Made by a program: the position numbers and the translations under genes | Shown here: piece after piece, positions 6,544-23,820 of the stretch | How positions within the stretch are numbered: position 1 is the first letter of the stretch | How the letters are laid out: each line of letters begins with the position of its first letter | From: a virus | Strand: one strand, 5' to 3' | DNA length: 64,000 nt | Virus record (IMG/VR): IMGVR_UViG_3300045988_139474 | Coordinates: 64,001 to 128,000 of that record | The notes under the pieces: generated by a model | The model's input: only the letters and a program-made list of their open reading frames with translations | Told to the model about the DNA's origin: nothing | Database searches by the model: none

Positions 6544-6561
6544 GTGATTTGCTCCTTAGTG

Positions 6562-6831
6562 TTAAAGCATGACCCAGTCTTCAGACAAAACGTCAGTTTG
6601 ACTAGCTAACCATGGGACTAACTTGCCGTCAGCCGTTTTCATGTAGATTGCGTCCAGCACGTCTTTCGTCTCGGCATCTGGGTGATTGTAGGCATCGTTG
6701 ATGACCTTAGTAATAGCCTCACCTCGAACCAAGAACAGGAACATGTTTTTGCCGTTCCAACCATTGCGGGCAACTAGGCCACCCATTTTCAAATGCTCAA
6801 GGGCATTACCAAAAGTAAGCAATTCAGGCAT
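6562..6831 (-). CDS. DUF2829-like small protein (candidate Tad2-type anti-Thoeris sponge)
   Basis: 89 aa. The pattern FGNALEHLKMGGLVARNGWNGKNMFLF...DAIYMKTADGKLVPWLASQTDVLSEDWVML matches my memory of the DUF2829 fold signature (F..A...G..v.R.gW ... W.ps..DllaeDW). Confidence 0.55.
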   Translation of the reverse strand: MPELLTFGNALEHLKMGGLVARNGWNGKNMFLFLVRGEAITKVINDAYNHPDAETKDVLDAIYMKTADGKLVPWLASQTDVLSEDWVML

Positions 6832-6851
6832 TGTGTATCTCCTTAATGTTT

Positions 6852-6899
6852 TTCAAATACAAAACAGCAGGCTAATCGGAGGAATAGATTGCTGCTGTT
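6852..6899 (-). terminator. terminator candidate
   Basis: 8-bp stem AACAGCAG / CTGCTGTT with a 20-nt loop, followed on the minus strand by TTTTGTATTTG. Confidence 0.4.
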
Positions 6900-6908
6900 G
6901 TAGGGTTG

Positions 6909-7415
6909 TTAGGCTTCTAAAGTCGCACGGACTTGTTGACTGACGATTTTGAAATACTCCTCATCATAGCCTTGAGGGTCATGTGCGCCGTTACCGATTG
7001 CATATTCATCCTCAAGCACCACTTCTGTATTCTTGACTACTTCAAGCACCAGATAGTGGCCATCACGCTCATCTTCAGGCATAGTCTTCAGATACTTGAC
7101 TGCTGCTTCCAAGTCCTTGATATCAAAGAATAGGCCGTTCAGAATGATGTTCTCAAACCAGCGTGTGTAGGGATTACTGCCGCCAGGTTTGACTTCCTTA
7201 GGCTCAGGCATGTACTTGTCCGCAAGCTTCTTATCAAGCTCAGGGTCAAATTTGGCGTATTCCCAAAGATAGTCGATGTTCTCTTCAGCAACTTCCTCAA
7301 TATCACCAGACGACATCTTGGTCAGCTTCAAGAACTCCTTGTAAAGCTCAAGTGCCTTGCGGTTGTTAGCCTCAGTCACTGAGCGTTTCAAGCTTTCTAC
7401 AATTTTCATGTTCAT
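6909..7415 (-). CDS. hypothetical early protein, paralog family 3
   Basis: 168-aa ORF, paralog of 6040..6543. Confidence 0.7.
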   Translation of the reverse strand: MNMKIVESLKRSVTEANNRKALELYKEFLKLTKMSSGDIEEVAEENIDYLWEYAKFDPELDKKLADKYMPEPKEVKPGGSNPYTRWFENIILNGLFFDIKDLEAAVKYLKTMPEDERDGHYLVLEVVKNTEVVLEDEYAIGNGAHDPQGYDEEYFKIVSQQVRATLEA

Positions 7416-7419
7416 TTCC

Positions 7420-7752
7420 TTAATTGGATGGAATAGGCTTCCTGTAGCTTCTCACAATAGCATCTCTGATGGTTGAATCGGACAAATGAAACTCTGCATA
7501 TTTCAGCGGTGTCCACTTATTACCGTCAACAACTATCAAGTCACCAATGTAGGTCTTGTTAGGCTCGTGATTGCCATGGGCAAAGTCTGGTCCAGTGAAG
7601 TAGATAGCACCTGCATCATGATTTGAACGGCCTACAAGATAGCCAGCCTTGCGTAAATCCTTGATTACTTCGTCAGTATTCTCAGCTGTTAACTCAACAA
7701 CTCGGACAGAAACAAGGCCGATATTCGTCACTACTTGTTTGAAGTCTAGCAT
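7420..7752 (-). CDS. hypothetical protein
   Basis: 110-aa ORF tightly packed in the operon. Confidence 0.6.
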   Translation of the reverse strand: MLDFKQVVTNIGLVSVRVVELTAENTDEVIKDLRKAGYLVGRSNHDAGAIYFTGPDFAHGNHEPNKTYIGDLIVVDGNKWTPLKYAEFHLSDSTIRDAIVRSYRKPIPSN

Positions 7753-7764
7753 AGGCTTATCTCG

Positions 7765-8118
7765 TTACTTCTTCTGCTCTTGCTTGTTAGCTTCAACGGC
7801 CTTTGTAAGCTCAGTTGTGATGTATTCGCGGATAGCTTTCACCTCAGGAGTGTCCTTGACTTCCTGAACCAGCTCATTCGCAGCCAGAGTGTATAAGGTG
7901 ATACGGCTCGGCAAGACAACGGAAAGCGCAATCAGGACAGCAAGGGTAACAGAGGCCGTCTTAAACAGGAAGCTCTTGATTATGTCTGAGGCTTCCATAT
8001 CTACAAGGTCAGCCCACATAGGTAAGAAAATCAAGAATACCGCAAACAGGATACCGAATGCGATTGTGACAGTGATGATACCTTGAAAGATATCATTTAA
8101 ATACAGATACAGCAACAT
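7765..8118 (-). CDS. small membrane protein (2-3 predicted TM helices)
   Basis: The ATG at 8118 follows AAGGAGG and avoids overlap with nrdB. Hydrophobic stretches: IITVTIAFGILFAVFLIFLPMW and TLAVLIALSVVLP. Confidence 0.6.
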   Translation of the reverse strand: MLLYLYLNDIFQGIITVTIAFGILFAVFLIFLPMWADLVDMEASDIIKSFLFKTASVTLAVLIALSVVLPSRITLYTLAANELVQEVKDTPEVKAIREYITTELTKAVEANKQEQKK

Positions 8119-8129
8119 CTTCGGCCTCC

Positions 8130-9176
8130 TTATTTCTTCCAAGCATTAGCAAATTTGTCTTTGCTCCACTTCACGTGATACTCTGAACCGCCACCACTGA
8201 AGAAGTCATGGAAGTTGATTGAGTTGATATCACGGTAGAACCAATTTTCAATCGTCTTGTCTGACTCTTCCTCATCAAAGTAAGGATTCAGACCTATCAA
8301 GCCTCGACAGAAATTGATGCGGTGTTTGATAAAGTCTTTCATCTGGCCTGCGCTGATACCGTGAATCTCGCCATTGCTAAACAGCTTATCAATGATTTGG
8401 GACTCATGCTCAAACACTTTCAGGCTCAAGTCATCGATGATTTGCATCAGTACAGATTTCTGAGTATCAGTCAATTGACGCTCAGACAACAAGTGACGGA
8501 AAGTCGCTGCACCGCACATAGCATGCAGGTTTTCATCGGTAACTGATTGATTGATGCCTCGATTCAGGGTAGTCATGAGATTCTTCGCGCCTGCTTCCTG
8601 TGCTTGGAAGTGTTTCAGGAAAGCAAAGGAGGAATACAGAACAACACCCTCAATAAATACGAAGCCTGCGATTGAGACCAAGTCATCTTTAGCTGATGCT
8701 ACTTGACCGATGAAGTCCATGCGCTCAACCAATACAGGGTCTTGCTTCCATTCAGCATAGAACTCAGGCGTGTCGATATACAGCACCTTGTTAGCTTCGT
8801 TGTAGAAAGGCGCATGGCTATTCAATTCCACAGCGAAGAACATTGAGGCTGCACGCTGGAATTCAGGCCGTGGGAATATGCGGCTGTAACGCCTTGCCCA
8901 ATAGTCCTCACCGACAGCCAGCTCATAATGAGTAAACAGTCGGAGGATTTCGATGATTGCAAGTCGTTCAGCCTCCGTGCAATTCTGACGCAGGTCAGGA
9001 ACGTCATTCTGCATATCATATTCTGTAAACGGCCAGAATGTATGCATCTGCTGGTCGGCAAAGGCCTCAATGTCTTTGTATTCCAGCACCCAGCCGTCAA
9101 CAGGCTGGTAGATTTTCTGGGAGCGGTCTTGAGATTCCGCTAACAAAGCAATCTTTTCTGCTAATTTTGTATCCAT
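8130..9176 (-). CDS. nrdB: class I ribonucleotide reductase beta subunit (R2)
   Basis: 348 aa. Ferritin-like di-iron layout: EAERLAIIEILRLFTHYELAV, FAVELNSHAPFY, FVFIEGVVLYSSFAFLKHF, SVTDENLHAMCG. Confidence 0.85.
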   Translation of the reverse strand: MDTKLAEKIALLAESQDRSQKIYQPVDGWVLEYKDIEAFADQQMHTFWPFTEYDMQNDVPDLRQNCTEAERLAIIEILRLFTHYELAVGEDYWARRYSRIFPRPEFQRAASMFFAVELNSHAPFYNEANKVLYIDTPEFYAEWKQDPVLVERMDFIGQVASAKDDLVSIAGFVFIEGVVLYSSFAFLKHFQAQEAGAKNLMTTLNRGINQSVTDENLHAMCGAATFRHLLSERQLTDTQKSVLMQIIDDLSLKVFEHESQIIDKLFSNGEIHGISAGQMKDFIKHRINFCRGLIGLNPYFDEEESDKTIENWFYRDINSINFHDFFSGGGSEYHVKWSKDKFANAWKK

Positions 9177-9210
9177 ATAATATCCTAGTGTAACAAGGCA
9201 ATCGCCTTTC

Positions 9211-9248
9211 GTATATTACAAAGCACCGTGAGATGAAAAAGCGCATTT
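9211..9248 (-). promoter_or_regulatory. class-2 promoter-like motif (AAATGCGCTTTT box plus -10-like box)
   Basis: Minus-strand reading is AAATGCGCTTTTTCATCTCACGGTGCTTTGTAATATAC, upstream of nrdB. Related to the copies at 14711, 23783 and 30253. Confidence 0.4.
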
Positions 9249-9273
9249 AACGCTAAAAATTTTTAAGCTTGGG

Positions 9274-9621
9274 CTACTGGAAGTTTTCGGCTATTTCAGC
9301 GATAATCTCGTCAAGAAGCCGTTTGCGCTCTTCTAGCATGTAGTGAACAACCAAAAACTCAAAGCTCGTTAAGGATTGAATGTGAGGATTTTGAGCTTGT
9401 GTGTAGTTATCGGCTGCGGCTTCTGTCAGCCACTTCAAATGACCTACCAAATTGCCCTCTCTTAGCAACCGCGCTTTTTCTTCAGCTTCTGACTTGAAGC
9501 CGTCAAGTTCAGCCTTGAGTTTCAATCGGGCTTTAGCTTCGTGCATGGCTGCTTCTTCAAAAGCTTCACGTGCCTCAGGATTTTTACAGGCTTCGTGATA
9601 TGTCTTCAAGATTTTACACAT
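9274..9621 (-). CDS. hypothetical acidic protein, tandem paralog array member 5 (most diverged)
   Basis: The ATG at 9621 (MCKILKTYHEACKNPEAREAFEEAA...) follows AAGGAGA. Shares the PEAREAFEEAA...EA motif with its neighbours. Confidence 0.6.
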   Translation of the reverse strand: MCKILKTYHEACKNPEAREAFEEAAMHEAKARLKLKAELDGFKSEAEEKARLLREGNLVGHLKWLTEAAADNYTQAQNPHIQSLTSFEFLVVHYMLEERKRLLDEIIAEIAENFQ

Positions 9622-9631
9622 TTGATTCTCC

Positions 9632-9985
9632 TTAACAAGCCAATGCAAGATGCTCAGATGTCGCGCCTACAACATCATGAATGATATCAGCCATCTGTTG
9701 ACAGAGGTAGCAATCAGCCAAGCACTTAAAGCTCTTGTCTGGCTCAATATTAGGGTCGATAGCTCGGTCATACTCTTCTGACGCATCAAATGCGTCCTCA
9801 TACAATTCTGCGACATCCAAACATTGTCGCAGCCACTCTTTCATATGTTCTTTTGAGCCAAAGCCGTTATCAACCAGATAGTCATTGAACTCTTCTTGAG
9901 CTTGCAATTTAGCAGCCTGTCTAAAGGCTTCACGCTCCTCAGGATTGAGACTTGCTTGACAATAGTTTTGCGTTGGTCGGTACAT
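9632..9985 (-). CDS. hypothetical acidic protein, tandem paralog array member 4
   Basis: MYRPTQNYCQASLNPEEREAFRQAAKLQAQEEFNDYLVDNGFGSKEHM... Confidence 0.7.
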   Translation of the reverse strand: MYRPTQNYCQASLNPEEREAFRQAAKLQAQEEFNDYLVDNGFGSKEHMKEWLRQCLDVAELYEDAFDASEEYDRAIDPNIEPDKSFKCLADCYLCQQMADIIHDVVGATSEHLALAC

Positions 9986-10368
9986 CAGATTTCCTTTCCC
10001 TTGTTAATCTCTAAGCCTGCGGCCAATCGTTTCTCTTCAAGCACACTTTCAATCATGTACATATACGTCTCAAGAAGCAAGGCTTCAACCAAAGCTTCAA
10101 AACTGTCTTCAGGGCTGATATCAGGTTGTACGGCTCGTTGTCGATAGTCGTTAGCTTCTTCCTCAGCATAGTACAGACGTGTACGCAATTCACCTTCTGT
10201 CTCTTGACTTAAGGTATGGCGCATATGCTCTACTGATGAAAAGCCTTCACCGACCAAGCCGTCTTTGAAGCGCGTGTTAGCCTCAATTTCAGCTCGGTAC
10301 TCAAAGTCCAAGTAAGTCGCAAAGTCGCTATCTAAGTTGTGAAGATTTGCTTTAGGTCGATACATCAC
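9985..10368 (-). CDS. hypothetical acidic protein, tandem paralog array member 3
   Basis: MMYRPKANLHNLDSDF...FKDGLVGEGFSSVEHM...SPEDSFEALV. Confidence 0.7.
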   Translation of the reverse strand: MMYRPKANLHNLDSDFATYLDFEYRAEIEANTRFKDGLVGEGFSSVEHMRHTLSQETEGELRTRLYYAEEEANDYRQRAVQPDISPEDSFEALVEALLLETYMYMIESVLEEKRLAAGLEINKGKEI

Positions 10369-10739
10369 ATCTTCTCCTTGCTAAGCATTCGGATTGGCTT
10401 GCCACCAAGAATCTTATTGACGGCTGTAAGGGCTGTAATAGTGAAGTATGAGTGGACTGTTTCCTCAAAGCTTTCCTCTGGACTAGCATTCGGGTCGTAA
10501 GATTTGGTGCTTGATTCTTCAAGGTCGTCTTGAAGACTCAAGGAGTAAAAGGTCAAGTCTAACGCAGGCTCAGCACGCAGGCAACTTTCCCAGTCCTCTT
10601 CTGAGGCAAATCCGCGTTCTTTCAAGTCAGCATTGAAGCGTTCTTTAGCCTCTTTATGTGCTGCGTCTGTAAAAGCTTTGAAGTCAACATCATCGCCTTT
10701 GACGGCTTGATTAAGGTTCATTGTCGGTTGAAACATCAT
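10365..10739 (-). CDS. hypothetical acidic protein, tandem paralog array member 2
   Basis: The ATG at 10739 follows GAGAGGA (MMFQPTMNLNQ...). Contains FNADLKERGFASEEDW...SPEESFEETV. Confidence 0.65.
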   Translation of the reverse strand: MMFQPTMNLNQAVKGDDVDFKAFTDAAHKEAKERFNADLKERGFASEEDWESCLRAEPALDLTFYSLSLQDDLEESSTKSYDPNASPEESFEETVHSYFTITALTAVNKILGGKPIRMLSKEKM

Positions 10740-10747
10740 TTGTCCTC

Positions 10748-11119
10748 TCAATCGCCGTATTGATTACGTTCACGGATAGCGTACAACTCAGCTAACACGA
10801 TATTGAAGACATTGATTGTCTCTTCAACTTCGATTGCCTGCACCAATAATTCAAAGCTCTTCTCAGGGCTAATAGTCGGATTAGTTGCTTGAAAGCGCAA
10901 TTCCTCAGCTTCCAATTCCATGTCTGCTGATTGGCTCTCTAAATCGGTCTCAGCCTCACCGCGCAAGGCATCCATCATAGCCTCGACTGAATTGTACCCT
11001 TCCTTTTTCAATCCTGCTTTGAACCGTGCTTGAGCTTCATGAGTAGTTGCTGTTTCAAACACTTCACGTTCAAGGTAGTCATCTTGAATCTGGCTGAGGT
11101 TTTTAGTCGGTCGGTACAT
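10748..11119 (-). CDS. hypothetical acidic protein, tandem paralog array member 1
   Basis: MYRPTKNLSQIQDDYLEREVFETATTHEAQARFKAGLKKEGYNSVEAM...SPEKSFELLV. Confidence 0.7.
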   Translation of the reverse strand: MYRPTKNLSQIQDDYLEREVFETATTHEAQARFKAGLKKEGYNSVEAMMDALRGEAETDLESQSADMELEAEELRFQATNPTISPEKSFELLVQAIEVEETINVFNIVLAELYAIRERNQYGD

Positions 11120-11145
11120 GTGGTCTCCTTTTGCGGTTTTGGTTG

Positions 11146-11184
11146 AGATAATTCAATATTTCATGAACTAATACTAATTTTTAG
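11146..11184 (-). promoter_or_regulatory. class-1 early promoter-like motif
   Basis: Minus-strand reading is CTAAAAATTAGTATTAGTTCATGAAATATTGAATTATCTC, upstream of the paralog array. Confidence 0.4.
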
Positions 11185-11495
11185 CTATCGGACACGACAA
11201 ACTGCGCCTTAGCTTCCTCAAGAAACTTGGCGTACAAGTATTCCATTGTCTCAATCAAGTTTTGCTTGAAGTTAAACAGCTTGAGTCGGTTATCAGAGGC
11301 TACACTCACGCAAGTCTGGTTCATGGTGTAATATAGGCCTGAAGTGTCGTTTTCAAGACGGAAGGCTGCACCCTTCAGCGCAGCCTTTTCTAAGCCTAAC
11401 AACCAACCAGAGATAGTCACTTGAGTCAGCTCATCAGTTACCCGACAAACTGAGAAAGCCTCAAACAACTCTGTACGGTCAATTTGGGCTTGCAT
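11181..11495 (-). CDS. hypothetical protein
   Basis: The ORF is open to 11534, but the ATG at 11495 (MQAQIDRTELFEAF...) avoids a 35-nt overlap. Confidence 0.5.
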   Translation of the reverse strand: MQAQIDRTELFEAFSVCRVTDELTQVTISGWLLGLEKAALKGAAFRLENDTSGLYYTMNQTCVSVASDNRLKLFNFKQNLIETMEYLYAKFLEEAKAQFVVSDS

Positions 11496-11499
11496 AGCT

Positions 11500-12501
11500 T
11501 CAGCCCTCGTATTTCCGAATGCGCATAGCAACACCGTTCATCAGCTTATTAAGCTTGTTGAACTCGCAGAAGCTGTTTTGACAAGTGCCTAACGACCAGA
11601 TACGGTCATGAGGCTCTTTCATGTAGTCCAAGATTTCTTCAGGCTTGAACTCAAGGCCGTTATCAGACATGATTGACTGAATATTGGTCGTGAAATTACG
11701 AATCCAGTCATTGTAATCTTGCTGAGACCAGCGATTGAGGTTGTATTTGACTCTCTTCTTACCAATCTCATCAACAAAGATTTCGCAGTTGCCGATGAGC
11801 CAGTCAATCCCTTGAATAGCACCTGGGCCACAGTTGACGTAGTCATTGTCTGTAAATTGGTACTCAGGGCAATACGTCCAATCCTCCCAGATTTGGTAAG
11901 CAATGAACTCACCAAAGCCTTTGATTGTCTTCAGGGTCTCAACGGCTTCTTCGGCGGATTCTGCTTTCAGGGCAGCCAAGATTTTATCCTTGTTGTCCAT
12001 GATAAGCTTGAAGCGCGCCAGCGTGTAACCTCGAAGCTCAGGAGCGTTCTTGTAAGCCTCAAGTACGACCATACTCAAGAAGTAGGCGTTTGACTGACGG
12101 GTTTCACCCTTGCCTTCGCCTTTCAAGCCAGCCTCAACCTTTTTGAAGAACTCCCAGTCAATATCGGCTGAAGTAGCATGAGCCATTCGGATAGGCCATT
12201 CAGGCAACCAACTACAGCCTGCCTCGTTATTGATACAGCGGAACAAGGCGCAGTTCATTGCTTTATCCTCAAGGCTCAAGTCTGGATTCTCGCAGACGGT
12301 CTCTAGGAGGAACTGGGACTCACGGTCATTCTTGCGATGGACGTTAGTGAACTTGTAGTGCTTCAAGTAGTAGTCGTCAGTCCAGGGCTTTGGCTGGCCT
12401 AACACGTTCTTGCGACGGTAAACATCTGAACGTCCGTATTGATAATCACGATACAACTTGAGTTTATCGGCCTGAATCGGCAAATTGAGATTTTTAGCCA
12501 T
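11500..12501 (-). CDS. aGPT-Pplase-like protein (alpha-glutamyl/putrescinyl thymine pyrophosphorylase family candidate)
   Basis: 333 aa. YKFTNVHRKNDRESQFLL and IKGFGEFIAYQIWEDWTY resemble family motifs as I remember them (N..R..DR near the N-terminus, GFG.F.AY later). Overlaps the adjacent P-loop gene. Confidence 0.5.
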   Translation of the reverse strand: MAKNLNLPIQADKLKLYRDYQYGRSDVYRRKNVLGQPKPWTDDYYLKHYKFTNVHRKNDRESQFLLETVCENPDLSLEDKAMNCALFRCINNEAGCSWLPEWPIRMAHATSADIDWEFFKKVEAGLKGEGKGETRQSNAYFLSMVVLEAYKNAPELRGYTLARFKLIMDNKDKILAALKAESAEEAVETLKTIKGFGEFIAYQIWEDWTYCPEYQFTDNDYVNCGPGAIQGIDWLIGNCEIFVDEIGKKRVKYNLNRWSQQDYNDWIRNFTTNIQSIMSDNGLEFKPEEILDYMKEPHDRIWSLGTCQNSFCEFNKLNKLMNGVAMRIRKYEG

Positions 12502-13552
12502 TTTTCAATCCTGCTTGAATTTCTTGCTCTAAGAATTTGAACAGCAACCAATAATCTTGATAATTCTTGGCTGGGTCAGTGTAGCTGCGTTTAGCTTGGA
12601 AGCTTGAACGCTTTGTATGCTCAACAAAATCAGTCGGGTCAACGCCGATGGCCTTGAGATAGCGGATGACCGCAAAAATCGGCTCTTCAGTCGAATCAGC
12701 CATATTCAGATGAACAAATTTCATCTGGTCTTTGAGCTTCTCAGCCTGCTGACTGATACGCTTGAACGGAATAGTTGAATGGCGCTCGTTGTTGTTAAAG
12801 GCAGAATCGCCCTTAGCAACTTGGTAGCTTCTGTCCTTGAATCGCTCCAGCATTACGTCTTTGCTAGCGTGGCGGAAAGCTTCCAAGATATATCGGTCTT
12901 GGCCGTTGTCTTTCAGCTGATTCTCCAAGTCAAAGGTCGCAACCTCAAGGCCTGCATAGCCCTCAAACAACACGTTGTACTTCTTAGCATAACGATGTAG
13001 CATTTCAAACAAGGTACAGTGAGACAGGCCTGAGGTGATAGAATCCGCTCCAGTCAAGCTCAACAGACGTGATTTGTTTGACTTGACGATTTTCGCACCC
13101 AAAATCAGGAGATTCAAGGCAGGAATCAGGATACCAACATATTGGCGTGAGCGTGGGACATTCTGATTACCGACAAATTTGTCCTCAGGCTTTTCGGCCT
13201 TATGAAAATTGGGGATGTCGTCCTCAAACAACAGCTTCCATTGGTAGTTAGCAATCAAGTAGTCCAGCAGCATAGCCACTCGTGTACCCTTACCAGTCGC
13301 TGAGATACCCTTGAACTGGGCAAAGGAATAGGGACTGGCTGCGATTACAGTGTCTGTCGGCTCTTGGTCGGGCTTCAAGTAATTCGCAGGCGCAGGGATT
13401 TCGCCTTTCAATTTGACCTGATATTCCTCAGGGACTTTCACGGCGTGATCAGTCCATGGCTCATAAATCACTTCGCCAGCATAGCCAATACGGCGTAAGC
13501 TTTCTGGCCAATCCTCAGGATTGACCTTTTGGCCTTTCTTGTAATTCATCAT
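12494..13552 (-). CDS. P-loop NTPase/kinase (candidate 5-hmdU DNA kinase)
   Basis: 352 aa. Walker-A-like GISATGKGT and Walker-B-like LLFEDD. Sandwiched with 4-8 nt overlaps between two Pplase-like genes. Confidence 0.4.
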   Translation of the reverse strand: MMNYKKGQKVNPEDWPESLRRIGYAGEVIYEPWTDHAVKVPEEYQVKLKGEIPAPANYLKPDQEPTDTVIAASPYSFAQFKGISATGKGTRVAMLLDYLIANYQWKLLFEDDIPNFHKAEKPEDKFVGNQNVPRSRQYVGILIPALNLLILGAKIVKSNKSRLLSLTGADSITSGLSHCTLFEMLHRYAKKYNVLFEGYAGLEVATFDLENQLKDNGQDRYILEAFRHASKDVMLERFKDRSYQVAKGDSAFNNNERHSTIPFKRISQQAEKLKDQMKFVHLNMADSTEEPIFAVIRYLKAIGVDPTDFVEHTKRSSFQAKRSYTDPAKNYQDYWLLFKFLEQEIQAGLKNG

Positions 13553-14691
13553 TTTGATTCCTCTTCAACATAAAAATCGAATACTGGTTGAATAGCTTTG
13601 CGTTGTTCCTTATCAGACAATCGCATGAAGTCGGTCGGTAGGTTGAACTCTTGGTACAGGTTACCAAATTCTGGATAATCGTCTTCAAGGTTCAAGACAC
13701 GGCCTGTCTTAACTCCCAATTTCTGCAGGATATGTGAAGACTTACACAGCCGAACTTTCGGGTGTTGATCAGTCTCCATGAATTCCAACGCAGCACTGTA
13801 GTCAACATCGGGGAACAACTCTTGCATCTTACACAACCACTCATAACAGTAAGTCGTATTATAGCCCATATATTCACCTCCTGAATAGCACAGGCGTTTA
13901 AACTCACACAACCAAGTTTCAAGGGTGTACTTGTTGTATTGCGGGTGAAAATCCGCTCCGAAAGCTTCCTCAATACGCTGGACTAATTCCTCTTCCAACG
14001 CCAAGACTTCCTCAGGGTCGTAGCTGCTGCGCTTCTGGCTTTCTTTGCCGCCGCCAGCAATTGGACGGTTGAATAAGAACAGTAAGCCATTACGCACTGA
14101 CCAGTTTTCAGGGCGGTCGGCCAATACGTTAGGAGGCATCATCTTGTACGGTGTCAAAGTATGGAGGGCTTGTTGGGTCACCCAGTTAGCCATACGGCCG
14201 AACTCAAGGAACTTGCTCAACTCGGCATAAGTGCGATGGTAGTTATCCTCAAGGCTGGCGTTGAAGTCGTAGAAACTGTTAATCCAGTCAGTCAAGGTTT
14301 CAAACGGCGCAATCGTCTCTTTGATTGAAGCAGCCATCAGGTGGGCTTTACCACGTTTCCACTTCATGTCTGAAGCCCAAGCCAGCTTGTACTTGTAAGC
14401 TGTCTGGAACTCTTCCAATTCTTTCAGGTCAATATCCTTGAAATTAGGGAATCGCCAATAGATAGCCCAAGCACCGATTTCTTCGTGGCAAAAGCCTTGC
14501 AATAGGCTGAACCATAGGGCTTGCTCAACCGTCATAGGCTCGCCAGTCGGCGATTTATCCGTGTCGCGGAAAGCTAGTGCAGTGCCTGGTTCATCAATAT
14601 CATTGTTATCAAGCTTCCATTTGTAAAGCTTGAGAAAGACATCCATCCGATTCTCAGGCTTGCGAATGTCTGTTATCAAAATTGTCGTCAT
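13549..14691 (-). CDS. hypothetical protein, possibly a second distant aGPT-Pplase-like paralog
   Basis: The track start is TTG 14697; the ATG at 14691 follows GAGGA. FRDTDKSPTG...ALWFSLLQGF...FGRMANWVTQQ loosely parallels the 333-aa protein. Confidence 0.3.
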   Translation of the reverse strand: MTTILITDIRKPENRMDVFLKLYKWKLDNNDIDEPGTALAFRDTDKSPTGEPMTVEQALWFSLLQGFCHEEIGAWAIYWRFPNFKDIDLKELEEFQTAYKYKLAWASDMKWKRGKAHLMAASIKETIAPFETLTDWINSFYDFNASLEDNYHRTYAELSKFLEFGRMANWVTQQALHTLTPYKMMPPNVLADRPENWSVRNGLLFLFNRPIAGGGKESQKRSSYDPEEVLALEEELVQRIEEAFGADFHPQYNKYTLETWLCEFKRLCYSGGEYMGYNTTYCYEWLCKMQELFPDVDYSAALEFMETDQHPKVRLCKSSHILQKLGVKTGRVLNLEDDYPEFGNLYQEFNLPTDFMRLSDKEQRKAIQPVFDFYVEEESK

Positions 14692-14710
14692 ATACAATCC
14701 TCAGGTGTTA

Positions 14711-14750
14711 TATGGAATACAAAGAACGAAGAGGCCGAAAAGCGCATTTC
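14711..14750 (-). promoter_or_regulatory. class-2 promoter-like motif
   Basis: Minus-strand reading is GAAATGCGCTTTTCGGCCTCTTCGTTCTTTGTATTCCATA, immediately upstream of the three-gene cluster. Confidence 0.45.
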
Positions 14751-14798
14751 AGACGAAAGAAATGCGGAGCGCAATATCAACTACACTCCGCACGGCCT

Positions 14799-16046
14799 TT
14801 ACATTGGCTTCATCATTTCTGCTCTAGGGTCTTCAGCTTGTATCTCTTGAATCCGCTTCTCAATAGCTGCAATTTCCGCACTTGAATCCTTACGACGCAA
14901 AGATGAAATGCTCTTGCGCTTGATAGCCTCAAGAATTTCAACGCTCAGGCCTTCGACAGACGCCAAGATGTCTTCGTCAGATTTGTCTTCCAACAACAGC
15001 TGACCGACTTGCGGGAGCAGCTTCAAGACTTCGATGTCCTTGTTGAGCTTCGTTACACGGTTGCCTTTGTCGTGGTCGAAAGTCTCAATGAAACGGTTGA
15101 TAGTGATGTCTAACCATTCCTTGATACCGATATTGCGAACAACATCATTCTCAACCACAATAATATTGTATCGGCGGTTGAATGTTCCTACTCGCTTACA
15201 GATGTCCAGAATCTCGTTGATATCAACTCTAGCTCTCGGCAACTTGCGGATACGCAATGCTACTTCGTCACCAGACACGTCCAGAATCTCAATCTTGCCC
15301 TCTTCTAACAGCTTATTGAAAGCTCGCAGATTCGGCGCAAAGGTTTCGCCTGAACCGTGTAACAGAATCTCATTATCATTGAGCTTCTCAACATTGTAAC
15401 GGACTTGAACACGGCCTGTACCCTTGTCCCAAAGCTCTTGCAGGTCAGATTTATCGCGGTCGAACTTGTAACCAAACTGCGGTACAAGCAACTGCGGGTC
15501 ATCTTTCAACCAAGCCTCAAGCAAGGATTCATAGGTGAAAGCAGGCGTGCGACCAGCTGCACCAAAACCTAGATTCTGCGCTCCGTAAACCAAGCAATAT
15601 GGTACAGGCGTGATTAGGTATTCTGGCTCTAAGCCGACATCTGACTCAATCAATGGCGAGTAGTCCAGCAGTCTGAACCAGAATTTGGATTGAGCCTTAG
15701 TCAAGCCCACTTTCCAGTAACGTGCAGCAGCTGCAGGGACTGGAGTCATGAGCTTGATACCCACGCTACCGTATGAGTCAATAGCCTTGAGGCGCGCCAT
15801 ATCAGACATAGCACCAAAGATACCGCCGTCACCGAATGGGTGTAAGACTTGAATAGCACCAATGCCATTGTTAGCAGCCGTCAGTTTACCGTTTGCTACC
15901 TCTTTCAAGCCCAACAGGATACGGCGGTGGACAGGTTTTAGGCCGTCTAAGCTCGGAACAGCCCTGTCTCGGTTCACGGTCTTGCCGTAACTGATATAGT
16001 TACCAGTCACAAACTCAGCAAAATCATATGTTTCTTGCTTGCTCAT
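14799..16046 (-). CDS. type II topoisomerase, GyrA/ParC-like breakage-reunion subunit (T4 gp52-like)
   Basis: 415 aa. DRAVPSLDGLKPVHRRILLGL matches the GyrA N-terminal motif. Confidence 0.85.
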   Translation of the reverse strand: MSKQETYDFAEFVTGNYISYGKTVNRDRAVPSLDGLKPVHRRILLGLKEVANGKLTAANNGIGAIQVLHPFGDGGIFGAMSDMARLKAIDSYGSVGIKLMTPVPAAAARYWKVGLTKAQSKFWFRLLDYSPLIESDVGLEPEYLITPVPYCLVYGAQNLGFGAAGRTPAFTYESLLEAWLKDDPQLLVPQFGYKFDRDKSDLQELWDKGTGRVQVRYNVEKLNDNEILLHGSGETFAPNLRAFNKLLEEGKIEILDVSGDEVALRIRKLPRARVDINEILDICKRVGTFNRRYNIIVVENDVVRNIGIKEWLDITINRFIETFDHDKGNRVTKLNKDIEVLKLLPQVGQLLLEDKSDEDILASVEGLSVEILEAIKRKSISSLRRKDSSAEIAAIEKRIQEIQAEDPRAEMMKPM

Positions 16047-18290: not shown

Positions 18291-18332
18291 GGTCATAATC
18301 TGTTATCGCTCAGACCAACCTTAATTTTTAAT
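18291..18332 (-). promoter_or_regulatory. class-1 early promoter-like motif
   Basis: Minus-strand reading is TTAAAAATTAAGGTTGGTCTGAGCGATAACAGATTATGACC. It starts at the stop codon of the Mre11-Rad50 gene. Confidence 0.4.
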
Positions 18333-21132
18333 TGACGCCCTCTACCGTGTAGGCACTAACATTCTTCGTCATAACAGCCTGCAATCGGCGGTCGTAGAAG
18401 TTGAAGCCAGACACGTGAGTTGATAACAGCAAGCTACCAATACGTGAGCCTTTCAGCATCTTCGCAGCTTCCTCCAAACGGTTCTCGGATAGCTCCTTCA
18501 GGCTTTCGTCAAGAATGATTAGGCCTGTTTTGGAACCAAGCTCAAACAGTTTCGTTAGGAAGAACAGGTCAGCCAATACCTTTTGACCACCTGATAGGTC
18601 GGAGTAAGGAATCAGCAAACCGTCAACCTGCATATCAACGTCAAAGTCAATCTTCAGGTCACCTTTGGCTAATTGCTTGACTGTACGGACTACAAAATTG
18701 CCTGAGGTCATGATTTCAGCAATCTTCGTAAAGACTGATTGCACGACAGCACCGTTAGAAGCAAACAAGTTCATGTACTGCTCTAGTCTTGGTAAGCCTT
18801 GAGTTGCGGTGTCCAGTTGAGCGTTCATCTCAACCAGCTTATCCCGCAGGCTTTGTAACTGTTCATACTGACGCTGGGCAAATTCGCACTCCGCAATTTG
18901 TCGGGCTAACGATTGTTGCTCAATATCCATAGCGTTCAGTCTGTCTTGAAGCTCGCCCAAGCTAGGGAATTTCACAGGGTCAGGAAGGCCGTTCAGCTGT
19001 TCTTTCAAGCTAAGGATACGCACTTCAGCACTCGTGATATCATTCCGCAGTTTGATTTGAGTCGAATATGTAGCCAATTCTTCACGCAATCGCTGATTTC
19101 GGGCTTCCTCTTCGGCAATCAATGCTTCGTATTTGGTAACTTCTTCATCAGCTTTCTTTTGAGCGTCAGCCAAAGCATTTTGCTTCTCGACAACCGCTTC
19201 TTCGGCCTGTTTAGTCTTGGTCTTGAGTTCATTCAATGTCTCTTCATGACTGTCTAAAGGTTTGCCGCAGGTCGGGCAGCTATCTTTCAAGTTAGCCTCC
19301 GATTCCTTCGCAGCTGCTACCGCCAATTGGGCGAATCTTACATCATTCGCAGCTTGGCTTATAACATTGCCTGCTTTGGTAATGTAGGACTTGTACGACG
19401 CAATCAGATTGGTCGAAGTCTCAATCATAGACTTCAGGTCATCAGCTGTATTAGCAGGCATGAAGTTAGGGTCAACATCAGCCCGCATCTTTTCCAAGAA
19501 TCCCTCATGCGACTCAATCTGAGCCTCAATCTGACTTCTGGACGATAATGCCTGAATCAGCTTAGTCAAAGTGCTTCGGTCGGCGGTAAGTTTATCAGCC
19601 TGCTGTTGCTTTTCAGCCAACTCCAAACGCTTATCAAGGTCAACCATCTGTAGGTTTTCTACCGTCTGACTTGCGATATGAATCTCACTCTCAAGCCCTT
19701 TGACGGCGGATTTCTTAGCAGACAGCTCAGCTTTCAAGGCCGTATGGAAATTGTTAATCAGGCCTAAGCCTAACATTTCGGACACAATCGCAATCCGCTC
19801 GTTGTAGCCGTAACCACTTAACAGATAAGGCGCACCCTGCTCACGGTATAGCAAGTCCATCAATCGGATGAACGGCAATTTGGCTTGAATACGCTGATTC
19901 AACTCGGTTGAGTTGTTAGCCTGTTCCTGTACGTCATTGATGAAGTACTCAACGAAGCCTGAGCCGTTGTGACCTCGTGTGATGGTGTGCTTCTCACCCT
20001 TGTAATACAGGGTCATAGACACTTCCATATCCTTACAGCCTTTGCGAATCAGATTGTTGACTGAGCGCGGTGGGCGGAATACGAAGTCAATGGCTCGCAG
20101 TAGGCTCGATTTGCCGTTACCATTCTCACCTGTAACAACCGTCAGGCCTTCTGTAAACTGATACTCAAACGATTCAATTGACCTGAAATTCTTGATACGA
20201 ATGCTAACAGGCACGAAGTCCAAGTCAGCAGGTTCAGTATTGCTTCGGTCGATATTGGGCGCATAGACGGAATGTAAATCAGACAATTCTGCTGCCTTTA
20301 CATTCTCTTCAATCACCTTGTCGATATCAAGCCCAGCAATAACTTTAGCCGTATCAGCTGAAGTCACAACTTTGGGCTTTTCAACCAAGACTGTATAAGG
20401 GTGAGTTGGGTCATAACGCTTATCGCCCTTATACATGATTTTCAGGAACTTGGTATCAGCACTTTCAGTCTTCACCCTCTTCCAAGACATGTCGTCTGTA
20501 TCCAACACGATAACTGAGCCGTCAACCGACTCACCCATGTAGTGTTGAAACGGAACATTGATTGAGTGAGCATTACCCATATCAACTTTGTTATGGATGT
20601 CACCTGCAAGAATCAAGTCAGCCACGCTAGAATCGAACTCTTGGCCGAACTTATCGTGAAGCGTGATATGCCCAACCAGAAGGTCAAGATGTTCCTTGAA
20701 GTCATAATGCGTCTGGTCAGGTCGCCAGTTACTGAAACCGATTTTACGGCCTCCGATAGTCAGCACTTGATTATCCATGTAAGTCGCTTTGTCGTACATG
20801 ATAGCATGAATGCCTGCGTCATCATAGCCCTGTTCTTGGGCTTTTGAGCCTGAATCGTGGTTGCCTGAGATGTATAGGAACTTGTCTTTGGGGAAAGCCT
20901 CAGATAACGTCTCAACCATGTAGCGGAGCGTATTGGCAACACCTGGAGTCAATACATGACGGTGAACGATGTCGCCAGCTGCTATGAAGTATTCGCAGTT
21001 GTATTCCTTCGCAATCTCAACATAACGGTGCGCTAATCGGCGGAATTGTTCCAACCGCCAGCCTTTTCCGCCTAAGTTATGGTCAGGGAAGTCATGAATA
21101 TGAATATCCCCTGTTAGAAGCAATTTAGCCAT
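18328..21132 (-). CDS. Mre11(SbcD)-Rad50(SbcC) fusion nuclease/ATPase
   Basis: 934 aa. The N-terminal calcineurin-like phosphoesterase shows GDIHIHD, AAGDIVH, SGNHDS, GHITLHD and AGDIHN. These are followed by Walker A GENGNGKSS, long coiled coils, the zinc hook CPTCGKPL, the signature LSGGQK, Walker B LIILDE and H-loop LSTH. Confidence 0.85.
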   Translation of the reverse strand: MAKLLLTGDIHIHDFPDHNLGGKGWRLEQFRRLAHRYVEIAKEYNCEYFIAAGDIVHRHVLTPGVANTLRYMVETLSEAFPKDKFLYISGNHDSGSKAQEQGYDDAGIHAIMYDKATYMDNQVLTIGGRKIGFSNWRPDQTHYDFKEHLDLLVGHITLHDKFGQEFDSSVADLILAGDIHNKVDMGNAHSINVPFQHYMGESVDGSVIVLDTDDMSWKRVKTESADTKFLKIMYKGDKRYDPTHPYTVLVEKPKVVTSADTAKVIAGLDIDKVIEENVKAAELSDLHSVYAPNIDRSNTEPADLDFVPVSIRIKNFRSIESFEYQFTEGLTVVTGENGNGKSSLLRAIDFVFRPPRSVNNLIRKGCKDMEVSMTLYYKGEKHTITRGHNGSGFVEYFINDVQEQANNSTELNQRIQAKLPFIRLMDLLYREQGAPYLLSGYGYNERIAIVSEMLGLGLINNFHTALKAELSAKKSAVKGLESEIHIASQTVENLQMVDLDKRLELAEKQQQADKLTADRSTLTKLIQALSSRSQIEAQIESHEGFLEKMRADVDPNFMPANTADDLKSMIETSTNLIASYKSYITKAGNVISQAANDVRFAQLAVAAAKESEANLKDSCPTCGKPLDSHEETLNELKTKTKQAEEAVVEKQNALADAQKKADEEVTKYEALIAEEEARNQRLREELATYSTQIKLRNDITSAEVRILSLKEQLNGLPDPVKFPSLGELQDRLNAMDIEQQSLARQIAECEFAQRQYEQLQSLRDKLVEMNAQLDTATQGLPRLEQYMNLFASNGAVVQSVFTKIAEIMTSGNFVVRTVKQLAKGDLKIDFDVDMQVDGLLIPYSDLSGGQKVLADLFFLTKLFELGSKTGLIILDESLKELSENRLEEAAKMLKGSRIGSLLLSTHVSGFNFYDRRLQAVMTKNVSAYTVEGVN

Positions 21133-23782: not shown

Positions 23783-23820
23783 ATAATACACAAAGAACGA
23801 AGAAACCGAAAAGCGCATAT
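23783..23820 (-). promoter_or_regulatory. class-2 promoter-like motif
   Basis: Minus-strand reading is ATATGCGCTTTTCGGTTTCTTCGTTCTTTGTGTATTAT (TTTCGG, 17-nt spacer, TATTAT), upstream of the HU-like gene. Confidence 0.5.

What the first reader, a model, noticed from the sequence alone, without database searches (positions are those of the whole stretch)
11500..14697. Candidate thymidine-hypermodification module (Pplase-like, P-loop kinase, Pplase-like) in a Neisseriaceae phage
Three overlapping co-transcribed minus-strand genes sit behind their own class-2 promoter-like motif. The 333-aa protein carries YKFTNVHRKNDRESQFLL and GFGEFIAYQIWEDW. I recognise these as resembling the alpha-glutamyl/putrescinyl thymine pyrophosphorylase (aGPT-Pplase) family defined computationally by Iyer/Aravind and experimentally by Lee, Weigele and colleagues. 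The middle 352-aa protein has a P-loop (GISATGKGT) and a Walker-B-like LLFEDD. It occupies the slot of the 5-hmdU DNA kinase, which activates hmU in DNA for substitution. The 382-aa protein has a loosely parallel layout (FRDTDK..., FGRMANW) and could be a second Pplase clade. Together these imply post-replicative hypermodified thymidine in virion DNA. An HU/TF1-like gene and an RNR are nearby. I am not aware of such a pathway having been described for phages of Neisseria-type hosts, which are very rich in restriction-modification systems.
Basis: partly seen in the sequence, partly recalled or inferred. Interest (0 to 1): 0.8.

Follow-up and report, generated by a model that had tools for sequence, protein, structure and literature searches.

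The report
Thymidine-hypermodification genes in oral Neisseria phage
Three overlapping genes in a roughly 150-kb virus of harmless mouth Neisseria encode the known enzyme set that decorates thymine in the virus's own DNA to escape the host's DNA-cutting defences; the pathway looks complete, but it is a new example of a known system, not a new kind.

Summary
The three overlapping minus-strand genes match the three Pfam families that form the core of phage thymidine hypermodification. They are an amino-acid:DNA transferase (AADT, formerly aGPT-Pplase2; 13549-14691), a P-loop 5-hmdU DNA kinase of the HMUD2 type (12494-13552), and the kinase-associated helical protein HMUDK_hel (formerly aGPT-Pplase1; 11500-12501). 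Each resembles the biochemically characterised Salmonella phage ViI proteins (about 25-27% identity). The genes are translationally coupled, under strong purifying selection, and preceded by a recurrent promoter-like motif. The window belongs to a 144-154 kb uncultured myovirus common in human oral metagenomes. Six Neisseria DNA uptake sequences, five in the AG-DUS dialect, point to a commensal Neisseria host. By walking along the source contigs I found the missing hmU supply about 30 kb away. It comprises dUTPase, dCTP deaminase, a non-canonical 385-aa ThyA-like protein closest to phage dUMP hydroxymethylases, an HD 5'-deoxynucleotidase, a P-loop kinase and PolA. No tailoring enzyme was found in the roughly 100 kb examined, and the glycine-binding residues of the solved transferase are not conserved, so the appended group is unknown. 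Verdict: a new, divergent member of a known system in a new host lineage, of moderate interest.

The parts
14762..14793 (-). Terminator-like hairpin with a T-rich tail, just after the topoisomerase II small-subunit gene. It marks the upstream boundary of the module's transcription unit.
   Evidence: Pattern scan, 14-bp stem; sequence read. Function is inferred.
14719..14747 (-). Promoter-like bipartite motif ATGCGCTTTT-N10-GTTCTTTGT, about 30 nt upstream of the transferase start codon.
   Evidence: 4 copies in the window against 0 expected, all on the minus strand and intergenic (14719-14747, 23790-23818, 30260-30288, 9218-9246). Promoter function is inferred.
13549..14691 (-). Amino-acid:DNA transferase (AADT, formerly aGPT-Pplase2), 380 aa. 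Predicted to displace the phosphate of 5-phosphomethyl-dU in DNA with an amino acid or amine.
   Evidence: Pfam PF18724, 62.6 bits against a cut-off of 26.2. BLASTP to ViI gp247 (serine:DNA transferase) E 2e-15, 25% identity over 349 aa. AF2 model pLDDT 92.9. Foldseek BFVD hits to AADT-domain proteins with TM 0.65-0.82. dN/dS 0.053.
14182..14202 (-). FGRMANW, the helix equivalent to the 'FGPW' helix of PaMx11 PUGT. F-G is conserved; the glycine-binding W146 and K150 are replaced by M167 and V171.
   Evidence: hhalign of family profile A2 against PaMx11 gp46. Residue roles from PMC11472151. Coordinates.
13906..13920 (-). ETWLC motif, equivalent to PUGT E243/T244 (metal and O4 contact) and C247 (base clamp). 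E258 and C262 are nearly invariant or invariant in the family.
   Evidence: PMC11472151.
12494..13552 (-). P-loop 5-hmdU DNA kinase, HMUD2 type (351 or 352 aa). Predicted to phosphorylate the 5-hydroxymethyl group of hmU in DNA.
   Evidence: Pfam PF18747, 39.1 bits against a cut-off of 25, kinase core only. BLASTP to ViI gp243 (shown to be a 5-HMUDK) E 4e-9, 27% identity over 210 aa. dN/dS 0.076.
13283..13309 (-). Walker A / P-loop GISATGKGT of the kinase. ViI gp243 has GTSGTGKGT.
11500..12501 (-). HMUDK_hel (formerly aGPT-Pplase1), 333 aa. The kinase-associated helical protein, with no established catalytic role.
   Evidence: Pfam PF18723, 144 bits. 41.5% identity to Ralstonia phage RP13 ORF120. 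The same family is fused C-terminally to the kinase in SP10 gp186 and encoded directly after the kinase in PaMx11 (gp50).
11181..11495 (-). 104-aa ORF of unknown function, 4 nt downstream of HMUDK_hel with no terminator in between. Probably co-transcribed.
   Evidence: No Pfam, PHROG or NCBIfam hit. Conserved in all strains; dN/dS 0.25.

Best explanation
The three genes are the post-replicative core of a thymidine-hypermodification pathway. They belong to a 144-154 kb uncultured myovirus that infects commensal oral Neisseria of the AG-DUS dialect group.

**Inferred sequence of events**
1. The phage dCTP deaminase and dimeric-type dUTPase funnel deoxypyrimidines to dUMP.
2. A non-canonical 385-aa ThyA-family enzyme hydroxymethylates dUMP to 5-hmdUMP. 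An HD 5'-deoxynucleotidase and a P-loop (AAA_28) kinase encoded next to it bias the pool away from dTMP and towards hmdUTP.
3. The phage PolA incorporates hmdU in place of T.
4. On the DNA polymer, the HMUD2-type P-loop kinase transfers one phosphate from ATP to the hydroxymethyl group, giving 5-PmdU.
5. The AADT flips out that base and lets an amino acid or amine displace the phosphate, giving a bulky and probably charged thymidine adduct that blocks restriction enzymes.

HMUDK_hel is translationally coupled to the kinase. It most likely acts with the kinase as a DNA-binding or base-presenting partner, a split version of the SP10 gp186 fusion.

**Shown here:** family membership, gene linkage, conservation, and presence of all pathway genes.

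**Inferred:** every enzymatic activity, the order of steps (taken from M6, ViI and PaMx11 biochemistry), the role of HMUDK_hel, and the identity of the appended group. That group is unknown and is probably not attached in the PUGT glycine-binding mode.
For: **Module proteins**
- Pfam matches above the gathering cut-off for all three proteins.
- Significant pairwise similarity to the biochemically characterised ViI gp243 and gp247, with conserved short motifs (functions from PMC8989533).
- The AADT family profile reaches the solved AADT structures 25qc and 8z2m.
- PUGT residues D24, F143-G144 and E243/T244/C247 are conserved.
- High-confidence AF2 model with TM 0.65-0.82 to predicted AADT-domain phage proteins.

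**Gene arrangement**
- Kinase followed by HMUDK_hel is seen as a fusion in SP10 gp186 and as adjacent genes in PaMx11 gp49/gp50.
- Overlapping start and stop codons.
- Strong purifying selection: dN/dS 0.05-0.08, like the essential topo II subunit.

**hmU supply genes in the same genome**
- dUTPase_2 and dCTP deaminase are on the window's own contig k119_126914.
- The full order DCD, 385-aa ThyA-like, YfbR-like HD, AAA_28, Toprim, helicase, PolA is seen on sister contigs, with 100% DNA overlap along the L006-L031-L033 chain.

**The ThyA-like protein is not a canonical thymidylate synthase**
- 45 bits against NCBIfam equivalog cut-offs of about 327.
- Its only PDB hits at E<=0.01 are the CMP 5-hydroxymethylase MilA.
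- It is 46% identical to the ViI enzyme and scores 223 bits against a profile of phage dUMP hydroxymethylases.
- It has Asn where cytosine-specific MilA has Asp.

**Host**
- 6 DUS copies against 0.1 expected, 5 of them AGGCCGTCTGAA (dialect from PMC7371117).
Against: - There is no chemical evidence; the phage is uncultured.
- The kinase match is modest (39 bits) and covers only profile positions 7-167 of 298. The N-terminal 79 and C-terminal ~90 residues are unexplained.
- Foldseek against the PDB gave no significant hit, and the solved transferase PUGT was not in the top 50.
- hhalign to PUGT has low probability (22%, E 1e-3).
- Several PUGT residues (Y47, Y51, W146, K150, F173) are not conserved.
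- Sequence alone cannot strictly separate a dUMP hydroxymethylase from a divergent thymidylate synthase.
- The full ThyA-like gene was read on sister-strain contigs (about 93% nucleotide identity to the window strain in the L005-L031 overlap), not on the window's own contig, where the view ends in the preceding DCD gene.
- No PLP, radical-SAM, FAD or acetyltransferase tailoring gene was seen, and roughly 45-50 kb of the genome was not examined.
Confidence: 0.8

Rival explanations
1. The same pathway operates, but the final base is one of the already known ones (for example ViI-type 5-NeOmdU through O-serinyl-T). In that case a PLP decarboxylase or other tailoring enzyme would be encoded in the unexamined 45-50 kb, as in ViI, where the decarboxylase gene gp226 is separate from the gp243/gp247 genes.
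For: - The kinase and AADT are closest to the ViI gp243 and gp247 types among cultured phages.
- The substrate helix FGRMANW resembles ViI FGRLSAW rather than the glycine type FGPWIGFK.
- In ViI, gp226 is listed as a gene separate from gp243 and gp247 and is not in the 14-kb ViI stretch read here.
Against: - Only 25% identity to gp247, and the nearest relative in 1.8 billion representatives is 32% identical.
- No PLP-family hit in the roughly 100 kb examined.
Confidence: 0.25
2. The ThyA-like enzyme is a divergent but genuine thymidylate synthase, so the DNA carries ordinary T. The kinase-like and HhH-like proteins would then act on another substrate, for example as DNA glycosylases or repair factors, or on host DNA.
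For: - The Pfam hit of the ThyA-like protein is to the general thymidylate synthase family.
- Foldseek against the PDB gives only weak HhH-glycosylase hints for the AADT model.
Against: - The ThyA-like protein is far below the thymidylate synthase equivalog cut-offs and groups with hydroxymethylases.
- It sits next to an HD 5'-deoxynucleotidase, exactly as in the hmU phage PaMx11.
- All three module proteins fall in families so far tied to hmU-derived modification (PMC8989533).
- Strong purifying selection on the module.
Confidence: 0.06
3. hmU is made after replication by a TET/JBP-type thymine dioxygenase rather than by the nucleotide-pool route.
For: Such phage pathways exist and are associated with P-loop kinases and AADTs (PMC13229309; PMC8989533).
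Against: - No TET_JBP hit in any protein examined.
- A complete pre-replicative toolkit (DCD, dUTPase, ThyA-like, HD, kinase) is present instead.
Confidence: 0.03

Closest known systems
Salmonella phage ViI (Ackermannviridae) 5-NeOmdU pathway: gp243 and gp67 kinases, gp247 serine:DNA transferase, gp160 Pplase1, gp226 PLP decarboxylase, ThyA-like dUMP hydroxymethylase
   Same: - Same three Pfam families.
- The kinase is the HMUD2 (gp243) type.
- The AADT substrate helix is of the gp247 type (FGR.xxW).
- The ThyA-like protein is 46% identical over its core.
- Myovirus of about 150 kb.
   Different: - Only 25-27% identity.
- A different phage lineage: capsid and sheath are closest to RP13, EP_H11 and Ab1-TPeters.
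- The three genes form one overlapping operon, whereas the ViI genes are at separate loci.
- A single kinase was found.
- No PLP decarboxylase was found.
Pseudomonas phages PaMx11 and M6 clusters (AADT gp46/gp51, tailoring enzymes, kinase gp49/gp54, HMUDK_hel gp50, ThyA-like, HD)
   Same: - Local gene order: AADT upstream, kinase immediately followed by HMUDK_hel, and ThyA-like immediately followed by a YfbR-like HD protein.
- Conserved AADT residues D24, F-G and E-T-x-x-C.
   Different: - Those kinases are short, with only a weak sub-threshold HMUD1 match (PaMx11 gp49).
- Their tailoring genes (FAD lyase plus acetyltransferase, or PLP plus radical SAM) lie inside the cluster.
- The glycine-binding W146 and K150 are not conserved here.
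- Here the ThyA-like block is about 30 kb away from the module.
Bacillus phage SP10 gp186 (kinase-Pplase1 fusion; alpha-glutamylthymidine) and Delftia phage PhiW-14 (putrescinyl-T)
   Same: - SP10 gp186 has the kinase domain N-terminal and HMUDK_hel C-terminal, collinear with the two overlapping window genes.
- PhiW-14 gp109 is listed as a putrescine:DNA transferase, i.e. the final group is attached directly. From my own knowledge, SP10 likewise needs no known tailoring. This matches the absence of tailoring genes here.
   Different: - The SP10 kinase is the HMUD1 type.
- No Pplase2/AADT was detected in SP10 (Table 3 of PMC5889632).
- Different hosts and lineages.
Clade relatives Ralstonia phage RP13, Escherichia phages EP_H11 and IME392, Acinetobacter phage Ab1-TPeters
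   Same: - Capsid 47-53% and sheath 44-49% identical.
- HMUDK_hel 35-42% identical.
- RP13 and EP_H11 also carry ThyA-like genes; RP13 also shows the HD and PolA block.
   Different: - No homologue of the window AADT or HMUD2 kinase in the regions of RP13, EP_H11 or metagenomic relative L022 that I held.
- No Ralstonia record among the listed tblastn organisms.
- EP_H11 instead has a methyltransferase, a BCCT transporter, PIG-L and a GT-like gene beside its HMUDK_hel.

Membership tests
Amino-acid:DNA transferase (PF18724, aGPT-Pplase2) | Profile match above the curated cut-off | tested here: met
   62.6 bits against 26.2. 41 of 43 homologues collected from the protein also match.
Amino-acid:DNA transferase (PF18724, aGPT-Pplase2) | Similarity to a biochemically characterised member | tested here: met
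   ViI gp247: E 2e-15, 25% identity over 349 aa, with shared RKPENRM, FGR..xW and RNG..FL.NR motifs.
Amino-acid:DNA transferase (PF18724, aGPT-Pplase2) | Active-site residues of PUGT (D24; F-G of the FGPW helix; E243/T244/C247) | tested here: met
   D33, F164-G165 and E258/T259/C262 align. E258 and C262 are nearly invariant or invariant. The alignment has low hhalign probability (22%).
Amino-acid:DNA transferase, glycine-specific subtype (PUGT, M6 gp51) | Glycine-binding W146 and K150 | tested here: not met
   M167 and V171 occupy these positions. The protein is therefore not filed as a glycine transferase.
Amino-acid:DNA transferase (PF18724, aGPT-Pplase2) | All-helical two-bundle fold of solved or predicted members | tested here: inconclusive
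   AF2 model pLDDT 92.9, all-helical. BFVD matches to AADT-domain proteins with TM 0.65-0.82. Foldseek against the PDB found nothing significant, and PUGT was not listed.
Amino-acid:DNA transferase (PF18724, aGPT-Pplase2) | Transfer of an amino acid or amine to 5-PmdU in DNA | not testable with these tools
   Needs recombinant enzyme and LC-MS.
5-hmdU DNA kinase (PF18747, HMUD2) | Profile match above the curated cut-off | tested here: met
   39.1 bits against 25. The match covers only residues 80-260 and profile positions 7-167 of 298. The control ViI gp243 scores 561 bits.
5-hmdU DNA kinase (PF18747, HMUD2) | P-loop and similarity to an enzyme with demonstrated activity | tested here: met
   GISATGKGT against GTSGTGKGT, with shared SNKS and hhhhEG motifs. 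E 4e-9 to ViI gp243, whose kinase activity is shown in PMC8989533.
5-hmdU DNA kinase (PF18747, HMUD2) | Phosphorylation of hmU in DNA | not testable with these tools
   Needs an assay on hmU DNA.
HMUDK_hel (PF18723, aGPT-Pplase1) | Profile match above the curated cut-off | tested here: met
   144 bits against 25, covering positions 5-273 of 281.
HMUDK_hel (PF18723, aGPT-Pplase1) | Physical or genetic coupling to a 5-hmdU DNA kinase | tested here: met
   8-nt overlap with the kinase gene. Fused to the kinase in SP10 gp186 and adjacent to it in PaMx11 gp49/gp50.
dUMP hydroxymethylase (ThyA superfamily), the hmU source | ThyA-family protein in the same genome that is not a canonical thymidylate synthase and groups with phage hydroxymethylases | tested here: met
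   PF00303, 42.9 bits. Thymidylate synthase equivalogs give 45 bits against a cut-off of about 327. The only PDB hits are the MilA hydroxymethylase. 46% identical to the ViI enzyme and 223 bits against the hydroxymethylase profile. Seen on 146-154 kb contigs of the phage family.
dUMP hydroxymethylase (ThyA superfamily), the hmU source | Hydroxymethylation rather than methylation of dUMP | not testable with these tools
   No sequence rule known to me separates the two outcomes. Needs an enzyme assay.
Complete thymidine hypermodification pathway | Tailoring enzymes (PLP, radical SAM, FAD, acetyltransferase). These are optional in known systems. | tested here: inconclusive
   None found in the roughly 100 kb examined. 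About 45-50 kb was not seen.

The most novel reading that the evidence does not exclude
The divergent transferase is at most 32% identical to any of 1.8 billion representative proteins, and its substrate-binding positions differ from both the glycine and putrescine enzymes. It may attach a nucleophile not yet seen on DNA. With no tailoring enzymes, that would yield a chemically new hypermodified thymidine in a prevalent human oral phage. The stand-alone HMUDK_hel protein could also have a catalytic role of its own, for example handling the 5-PmdU sites that are not aminated. How such phages convert hmU back to T is stated to be unknown in PMC5889632.
Probability: 0.3. Interest if true: 0.65.

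Novelty: new member of a known kind. Interest (0 to 1): 0.45.

Why it matters
- **New host lineage.** It extends thymidine hypermodification to phages of Neisseria, a genus known for many restriction-modification systems and for which very few lytic phages have been isolated (PMC8868155). The phage family is also common in the human mouth.
- **Practical consequences.** Modified T can bias sequencing and restriction-based analysis of oral viromes. It would also matter for anyone trying to develop Neisseria phages as therapeutics.
- **Enzymology.** The operon is compact (transferase, kinase, helical partner) and has no tailoring genes. That makes it a convenient minimal system for finding out what the transferase attaches and what the still-unexplained HMUDK_hel protein does.
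- **Limit.** The enzymology and logic are already established for other phages, so this is an extension rather than a conceptual surprise.

Tried and rejected
1. **Single-sequence PDB searches** with the three proteins gave nothing meaningful.
2. **Unannotated window ORFs as ThyA candidates.** ORFs 22206-23279 and 23871-24881 were compared with EP_H11 ThyA-like and are unrelated. tblastn of hydroxymethylases against the roughly 84 kb then held gave no hit.
3. **Fingerprint search for the phage's ThyA-like gene.** I used a hydroxymethylase profile and looked for hits on contigs of the right size. The candidates P0075 and P0366 were SPO1-like phages. P0015 and P0007 were other relatives. The true gene scored 223 bits, just under the 246-bit listing limit.
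4. **Walking through IMG/VR** found no match.
5. **Finding the polymerase through RP13 PolA.** The hits P0411 and P0398 belong to a 28% GC phage carrying TerD genes, not this one.
Routing the protein through the listing of cluster members worked.
7. **Foldseek of the AADT model against the PDB** gave no significant match.
8. **hhalign of the AADT family against the 333-aa protein** was not significant, so homology of the two 'Pplase-like' proteins was not shown here.
9. **Single-sequence AF2 of the 333-aa protein** gave pLDDT 37.7 and is unusable.
10. **The sigma-70 consensus scan** found no more sites than chance.
11. **No tRNAs** in the window.

Full report
**Observation**

All quoted peptide motifs are present. 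The genes are translationally coupled. The transferase stop TGA overlaps the ATGATG start of the kinase, and the kinase and the 333-aa gene overlap by 8 nt. A further 104-aa ORF starts 4 nt after the 333-aa stop, with no terminator in between.

Upstream, a 14-bp hairpin with a T-rich tail follows the topoisomerase II small-subunit gene. After it comes a bipartite element, ATGCGCTTTT-N10-GTKCTTTGT. This element occurs four times in the window against none expected. All four copies are on the minus strand in intergenic DNA, ahead of the transferase, the HU gene, a 614-aa gene and the RNR small subunit. So the 'own promoter-like motif' is a real recurrent feature, although its promoter function is inferred. 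The generic sigma-70 scan was no better than chance. The likely true start of the transferase is the ATG at 14691 (380 aa, GAGG ribosome-binding site), which the metagenome gene calls also use.

**What the proteins are**

Pfam assigns each protein to one of the families defined for thymidine hypermodification:
- The 380-aa protein matches PF18724, amino-acid:DNA transferase (AADT, formerly aGPT-Pplase2), at 62.6 bits.
- The 352-aa protein matches PF18747, 5-hmdU DNA kinase 2, at 39.1 bits, over the kinase core only.
- The 333-aa protein matches PF18723, HMUDK_hel (formerly aGPT-Pplase1), at 144 bits.

The literature fixes what these families do. M6 gp54, ViI gp67 and gp243, PhiW-14 gp37 and SP10 gp186 transfer one phosphate to the hydroxymethyl group of hmU in DNA. 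M6 gp51, ViI gp247 and PaMx11 gp46 then replace that phosphate with glycine or serine (PMC8989533).

Direct BLASTP to the characterised ViI enzymes is significant:
- Kinase against gp243: E 4e-9, 27% identity, with the P-loop GISATGKGT against GTSGTGKGT and shared SNKS and hhhhEG motifs.
- Transferase against gp247: E 2e-15, 25% identity over 349 residues, with shared RKPENRM, FGR..xW and RNG..FL.NR motifs.

**The transferase in more depth**

An exhaustive HMMER search of 1.8 billion representatives found only 99 relatives. The nearest is 32% identical, and 41 of the 43 I aligned match the Pfam AADT model.

The family profile reaches the two solved structures of this family, 25qc and 8z2m/PUGT. 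The match is weak but falls in the right place. A profile alignment to PaMx11 gp46 (E 1e-3, low probability) gives these correspondences:
- PUGT D24 aligns with D33.
- F143-G144 of the FGPW helix aligns with F164-G165.
- The metal and base-clamp residues E243/T244/C247 align with E258/T259/C262. The last two positions are nearly invariant or invariant in the family (residue roles from PMC11472151).
- The glycine-binding W146 and K150 are M167 and V171 here. The helix reads FGRMANW, like ViI gp247 FGRLSAW and unlike the glycine enzymes' FGPWIGFK.

The AF2 model is confident (pLDDT 92.9, pTM 0.92) and all-helical. It matches predicted structures of phage 'amino acid:DNA transferase domain' proteins with TM 0.65-0.82. 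Foldseek against the PDB returned nothing significant, which I report as inconclusive.

**The 333-aa protein**

Its family is fused C-terminally to the kinase in SP10 gp186 (HMUD1 kinase at residues 35-193, HMUDK_hel at 313-598). In PaMx11 it is encoded immediately after the validated kinase (gp49, then gp50). The window has the same order with an 8-nt overlap. The simplest reading is a split kinase-partner pair, although the kinase here is the HMUD2 type.

Its biochemical role is not established. M6 reactions without gp55 still made N-alpha-glycinyl-T. gp55 is the gene that follows the M6 kinase; I infer, but did not test, that it is the HMUDK_hel homologue. I could not show homology between the 333-aa protein and the AADT family (hhalign E 0.03). 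A single-sequence structure model was unusable.

**Are the genes functional?**

They are intact in every strain examined. Against a diverged strain from IMG/VR (87-90% nucleotide identity), dN/dS is 0.053 for the transferase and 0.076 for the kinase. The essential topo II subunit gives 0.041.

**Whose genome is this?**

The exact proteins occur on human oral metagenome contigs of 143-154 kb. The window is 99.98-100% identical to ENA contig k119_126914 (154,035 bp) over the overlaps, and that contig appears circularly permuted and complete. NCBI nr holds the same proteins as 'MAG TPA: Caudoviricetes sp.'.

The phage is a myovirus (sheath, tube, baseplate). Its capsid and sheath are 44-53% identical to those of Ralstonia phage RP13, Escherichia phages EP_H11 and IME392, and Acinetobacter phage Ab1-TPeters. 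There is no close DNA relative among 50,697 phage records.

The canonical Neisseria DUS GCCGTCTGAA occurs six times against 0.1 expected. Five copies have the AG-DUS form AGGCCGTCTGAA, the dialect of the N. subflava group (PMC7371117). Unrelated loci have none. A commensal Neisseria host is therefore well supported, although it remains inferred.

**The hmU source**

Nothing ThyA-like or TET-like is in the window or its 10-kb flanks. After several dead ends, I walked along the source contigs.

- On the window's own contig, about 20-30 kb beyond window position 1, lie an EcoRI-methylase-like gene, a dimeric-type dUTPase (PF08761), an Rv2179c-like exonuclease and a dCTP deaminase.
- On sister contigs with the same order, the dCTP deaminase is followed by a 385-aa PF00303 protein, a YfbR-like HD 5'-deoxynucleotidase, an AAA_28 P-loop protein, a 398-aa unknown, a Toprim protein, a helicase and a 1047-aa PolA. 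One of these contigs is the 153,943-bp contig from run ERR589702, a run that also yielded the exact 333-aa protein.
- The chain L006-L031-L033 overlaps at 100% DNA identity. L005 and L031 overlap at about 93%.

The ThyA-like protein is not a canonical thymidylate synthase:
- It scores 45 bits against NCBIfam equivalogs whose cut-offs are about 327.
- Its only PDB hits at E<=0.01 are the CMP 5-hydroxymethylase MilA.
- It is 46% identical to the ViI enzyme and 38% to RP13's, and scores 223 bits against a profile of phage dUMP hydroxymethylases.
- At the pyrimidine-specificity position it has Asn where cytosine-specific MilA has Asp. From my own knowledge of thymidylate synthase, where Asn177 (E. 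coli numbering) reads uracil, this indicates uracil specificity.

The ThyA-like and HD pair is arranged exactly as in the hmU phage PaMx11 (gp51, gp52).

**Mechanism**

Family membership, linkage, conservation and pathway completeness are shown here. All activities are inferred from the M6, ViI, PaMx11, SP10 and PhiW-14 biochemistry.

1. dCTP deaminase and dUTPase supply dUMP.
2. The ThyA-like enzyme makes 5-hmdUMP.
3. The HD nucleotidase and the P-loop kinase shift the pool from dTMP towards hmdUTP.
4. PolA incorporates hmdU.
5. The HMUD2 kinase, probably together with HMUDK_hel, makes 5-PmdU on DNA.
6. The AADT replaces the phosphate with an amino acid or amine.

No tailoring enzyme was found in the roughly 100 kb examined. 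The product may therefore be the directly attached group, as with PhiW-14 putrescine. Alternatively, a tailoring gene may sit in the unseen 45-50 kb, as the ViI decarboxylase gene does at its own separate locus. The identity of the group is unknown, and the PUGT glycine-binding mode is unlikely.

**Comparison and novelty**

The system works like the ViI, M6, PaMx11, SP10 and PhiW-14 pathways, and it passes the family tests I could run. It is a divergent member in a new phage lineage and host genus, arranged as a compact three-gene operon.

The RP13 and EP_H11 relatives share HMUDK_hel and ThyA-like genes. They show no homologue of this AADT/HMUD2 pair in the regions I held. The pair may therefore have been acquired separately, which is an inference.

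Literature searches found no report of thymidine hypermodification in a Neisseria phage. Lee et al. recovered more than 1,000 metavirome contigs with 5-HMUDK genes, so occurrence in yet another phage is not surprising to a specialist. I rate it a new member of a known kind, with interest 0.45.

Noticed in passing
window 9274-11119 (-): Tandem array of five paralogous ~120-aa ORFs (30-37% identical) directly downstream of the module and the 104-aa ORF. Copy number varies from about 4 to 9 between strains. No Pfam or PHROG match for the copy tested.
   Followed up: partly
window 23357-23707 (-), motif at 23790-23818: An HU-family gene (PF00216, E 7e-28) carries the same promoter-like motif as the transferase operon. 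SPO1-like hmU phages in loci L020 and L027 also have an HU/TF1-type gene next to their ThyA-like gene, so this may be a TF1-like protein adapted to modified DNA.
   Followed up: partly
window 3788-5953 (-): The RNR large subunit is interrupted by an intein. Other strains carry a longer 943-aa version with an HNH_3 homing endonuclease.
   Followed up: no
window 18328-21132 (-): A single 934-aa ORF combines an Mre11-like metallophosphoesterase domain (residues 3-181) with a Rad50/SMC-type ATPase. This looks like a fused SbcCD/Mre11-Rad50.
   Followed up: no
window 6562-6831 (-): An 89-aa ORF with a precomputed Pfam hit to Tad2-like (PF11195, an anti-Thoeris family). It is absent from at least one strain (L006).
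   Followed up: no
window 480, 29026, 40121, 44076, 48053, 54622: Six Neisseria DNA uptake sequences in a lytic-type myovirus genome, five in the AG-DUS dialect, at about 1 per 10 kb. That is far sparser than the 1 per 0.4-1.1 kb quoted for host genomes (PMC7371117), but far above chance.
   Followed up: yes
L037:11677-12606 (window's own contig, about 22 kb beyond window position 1): An EcoRI_methylase-like (PF13651) DNA methyltransferase is present in the 154-kb strains. In the 146.5-kb strain (L031) the same place is a gene-free gap of about 1.4 kb. This is a second, strain-variable DNA modification function.
   Followed up: no
L014 (Escherichia phage EP_H11, record positions 6420-15275): In this cultured relative the HMUDK_hel and ThyA-like genes are accompanied by a methyltransferase, a BCCT-family transporter, a PIG-L deacetylase and a GT-like protein instead of an AADT. 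This may be a different, uncharacterised hmU-derived modification.
   Followed up: partly
L010:14830 onward (just beyond the window end): A 3487-aa giant ORF (probably a tail fibre or adhesin) follows a 1290-aa DUF4815 protein.
   Followed up: no
L029, L030: An unrelated 28% GC phage family of about 170 kb from human metagenomes carries four TerD genes, CsrA, an intein-split PolA and an RNAP beta-prime-like gene. It was met while searching for the polymerase.
   Followed up: no
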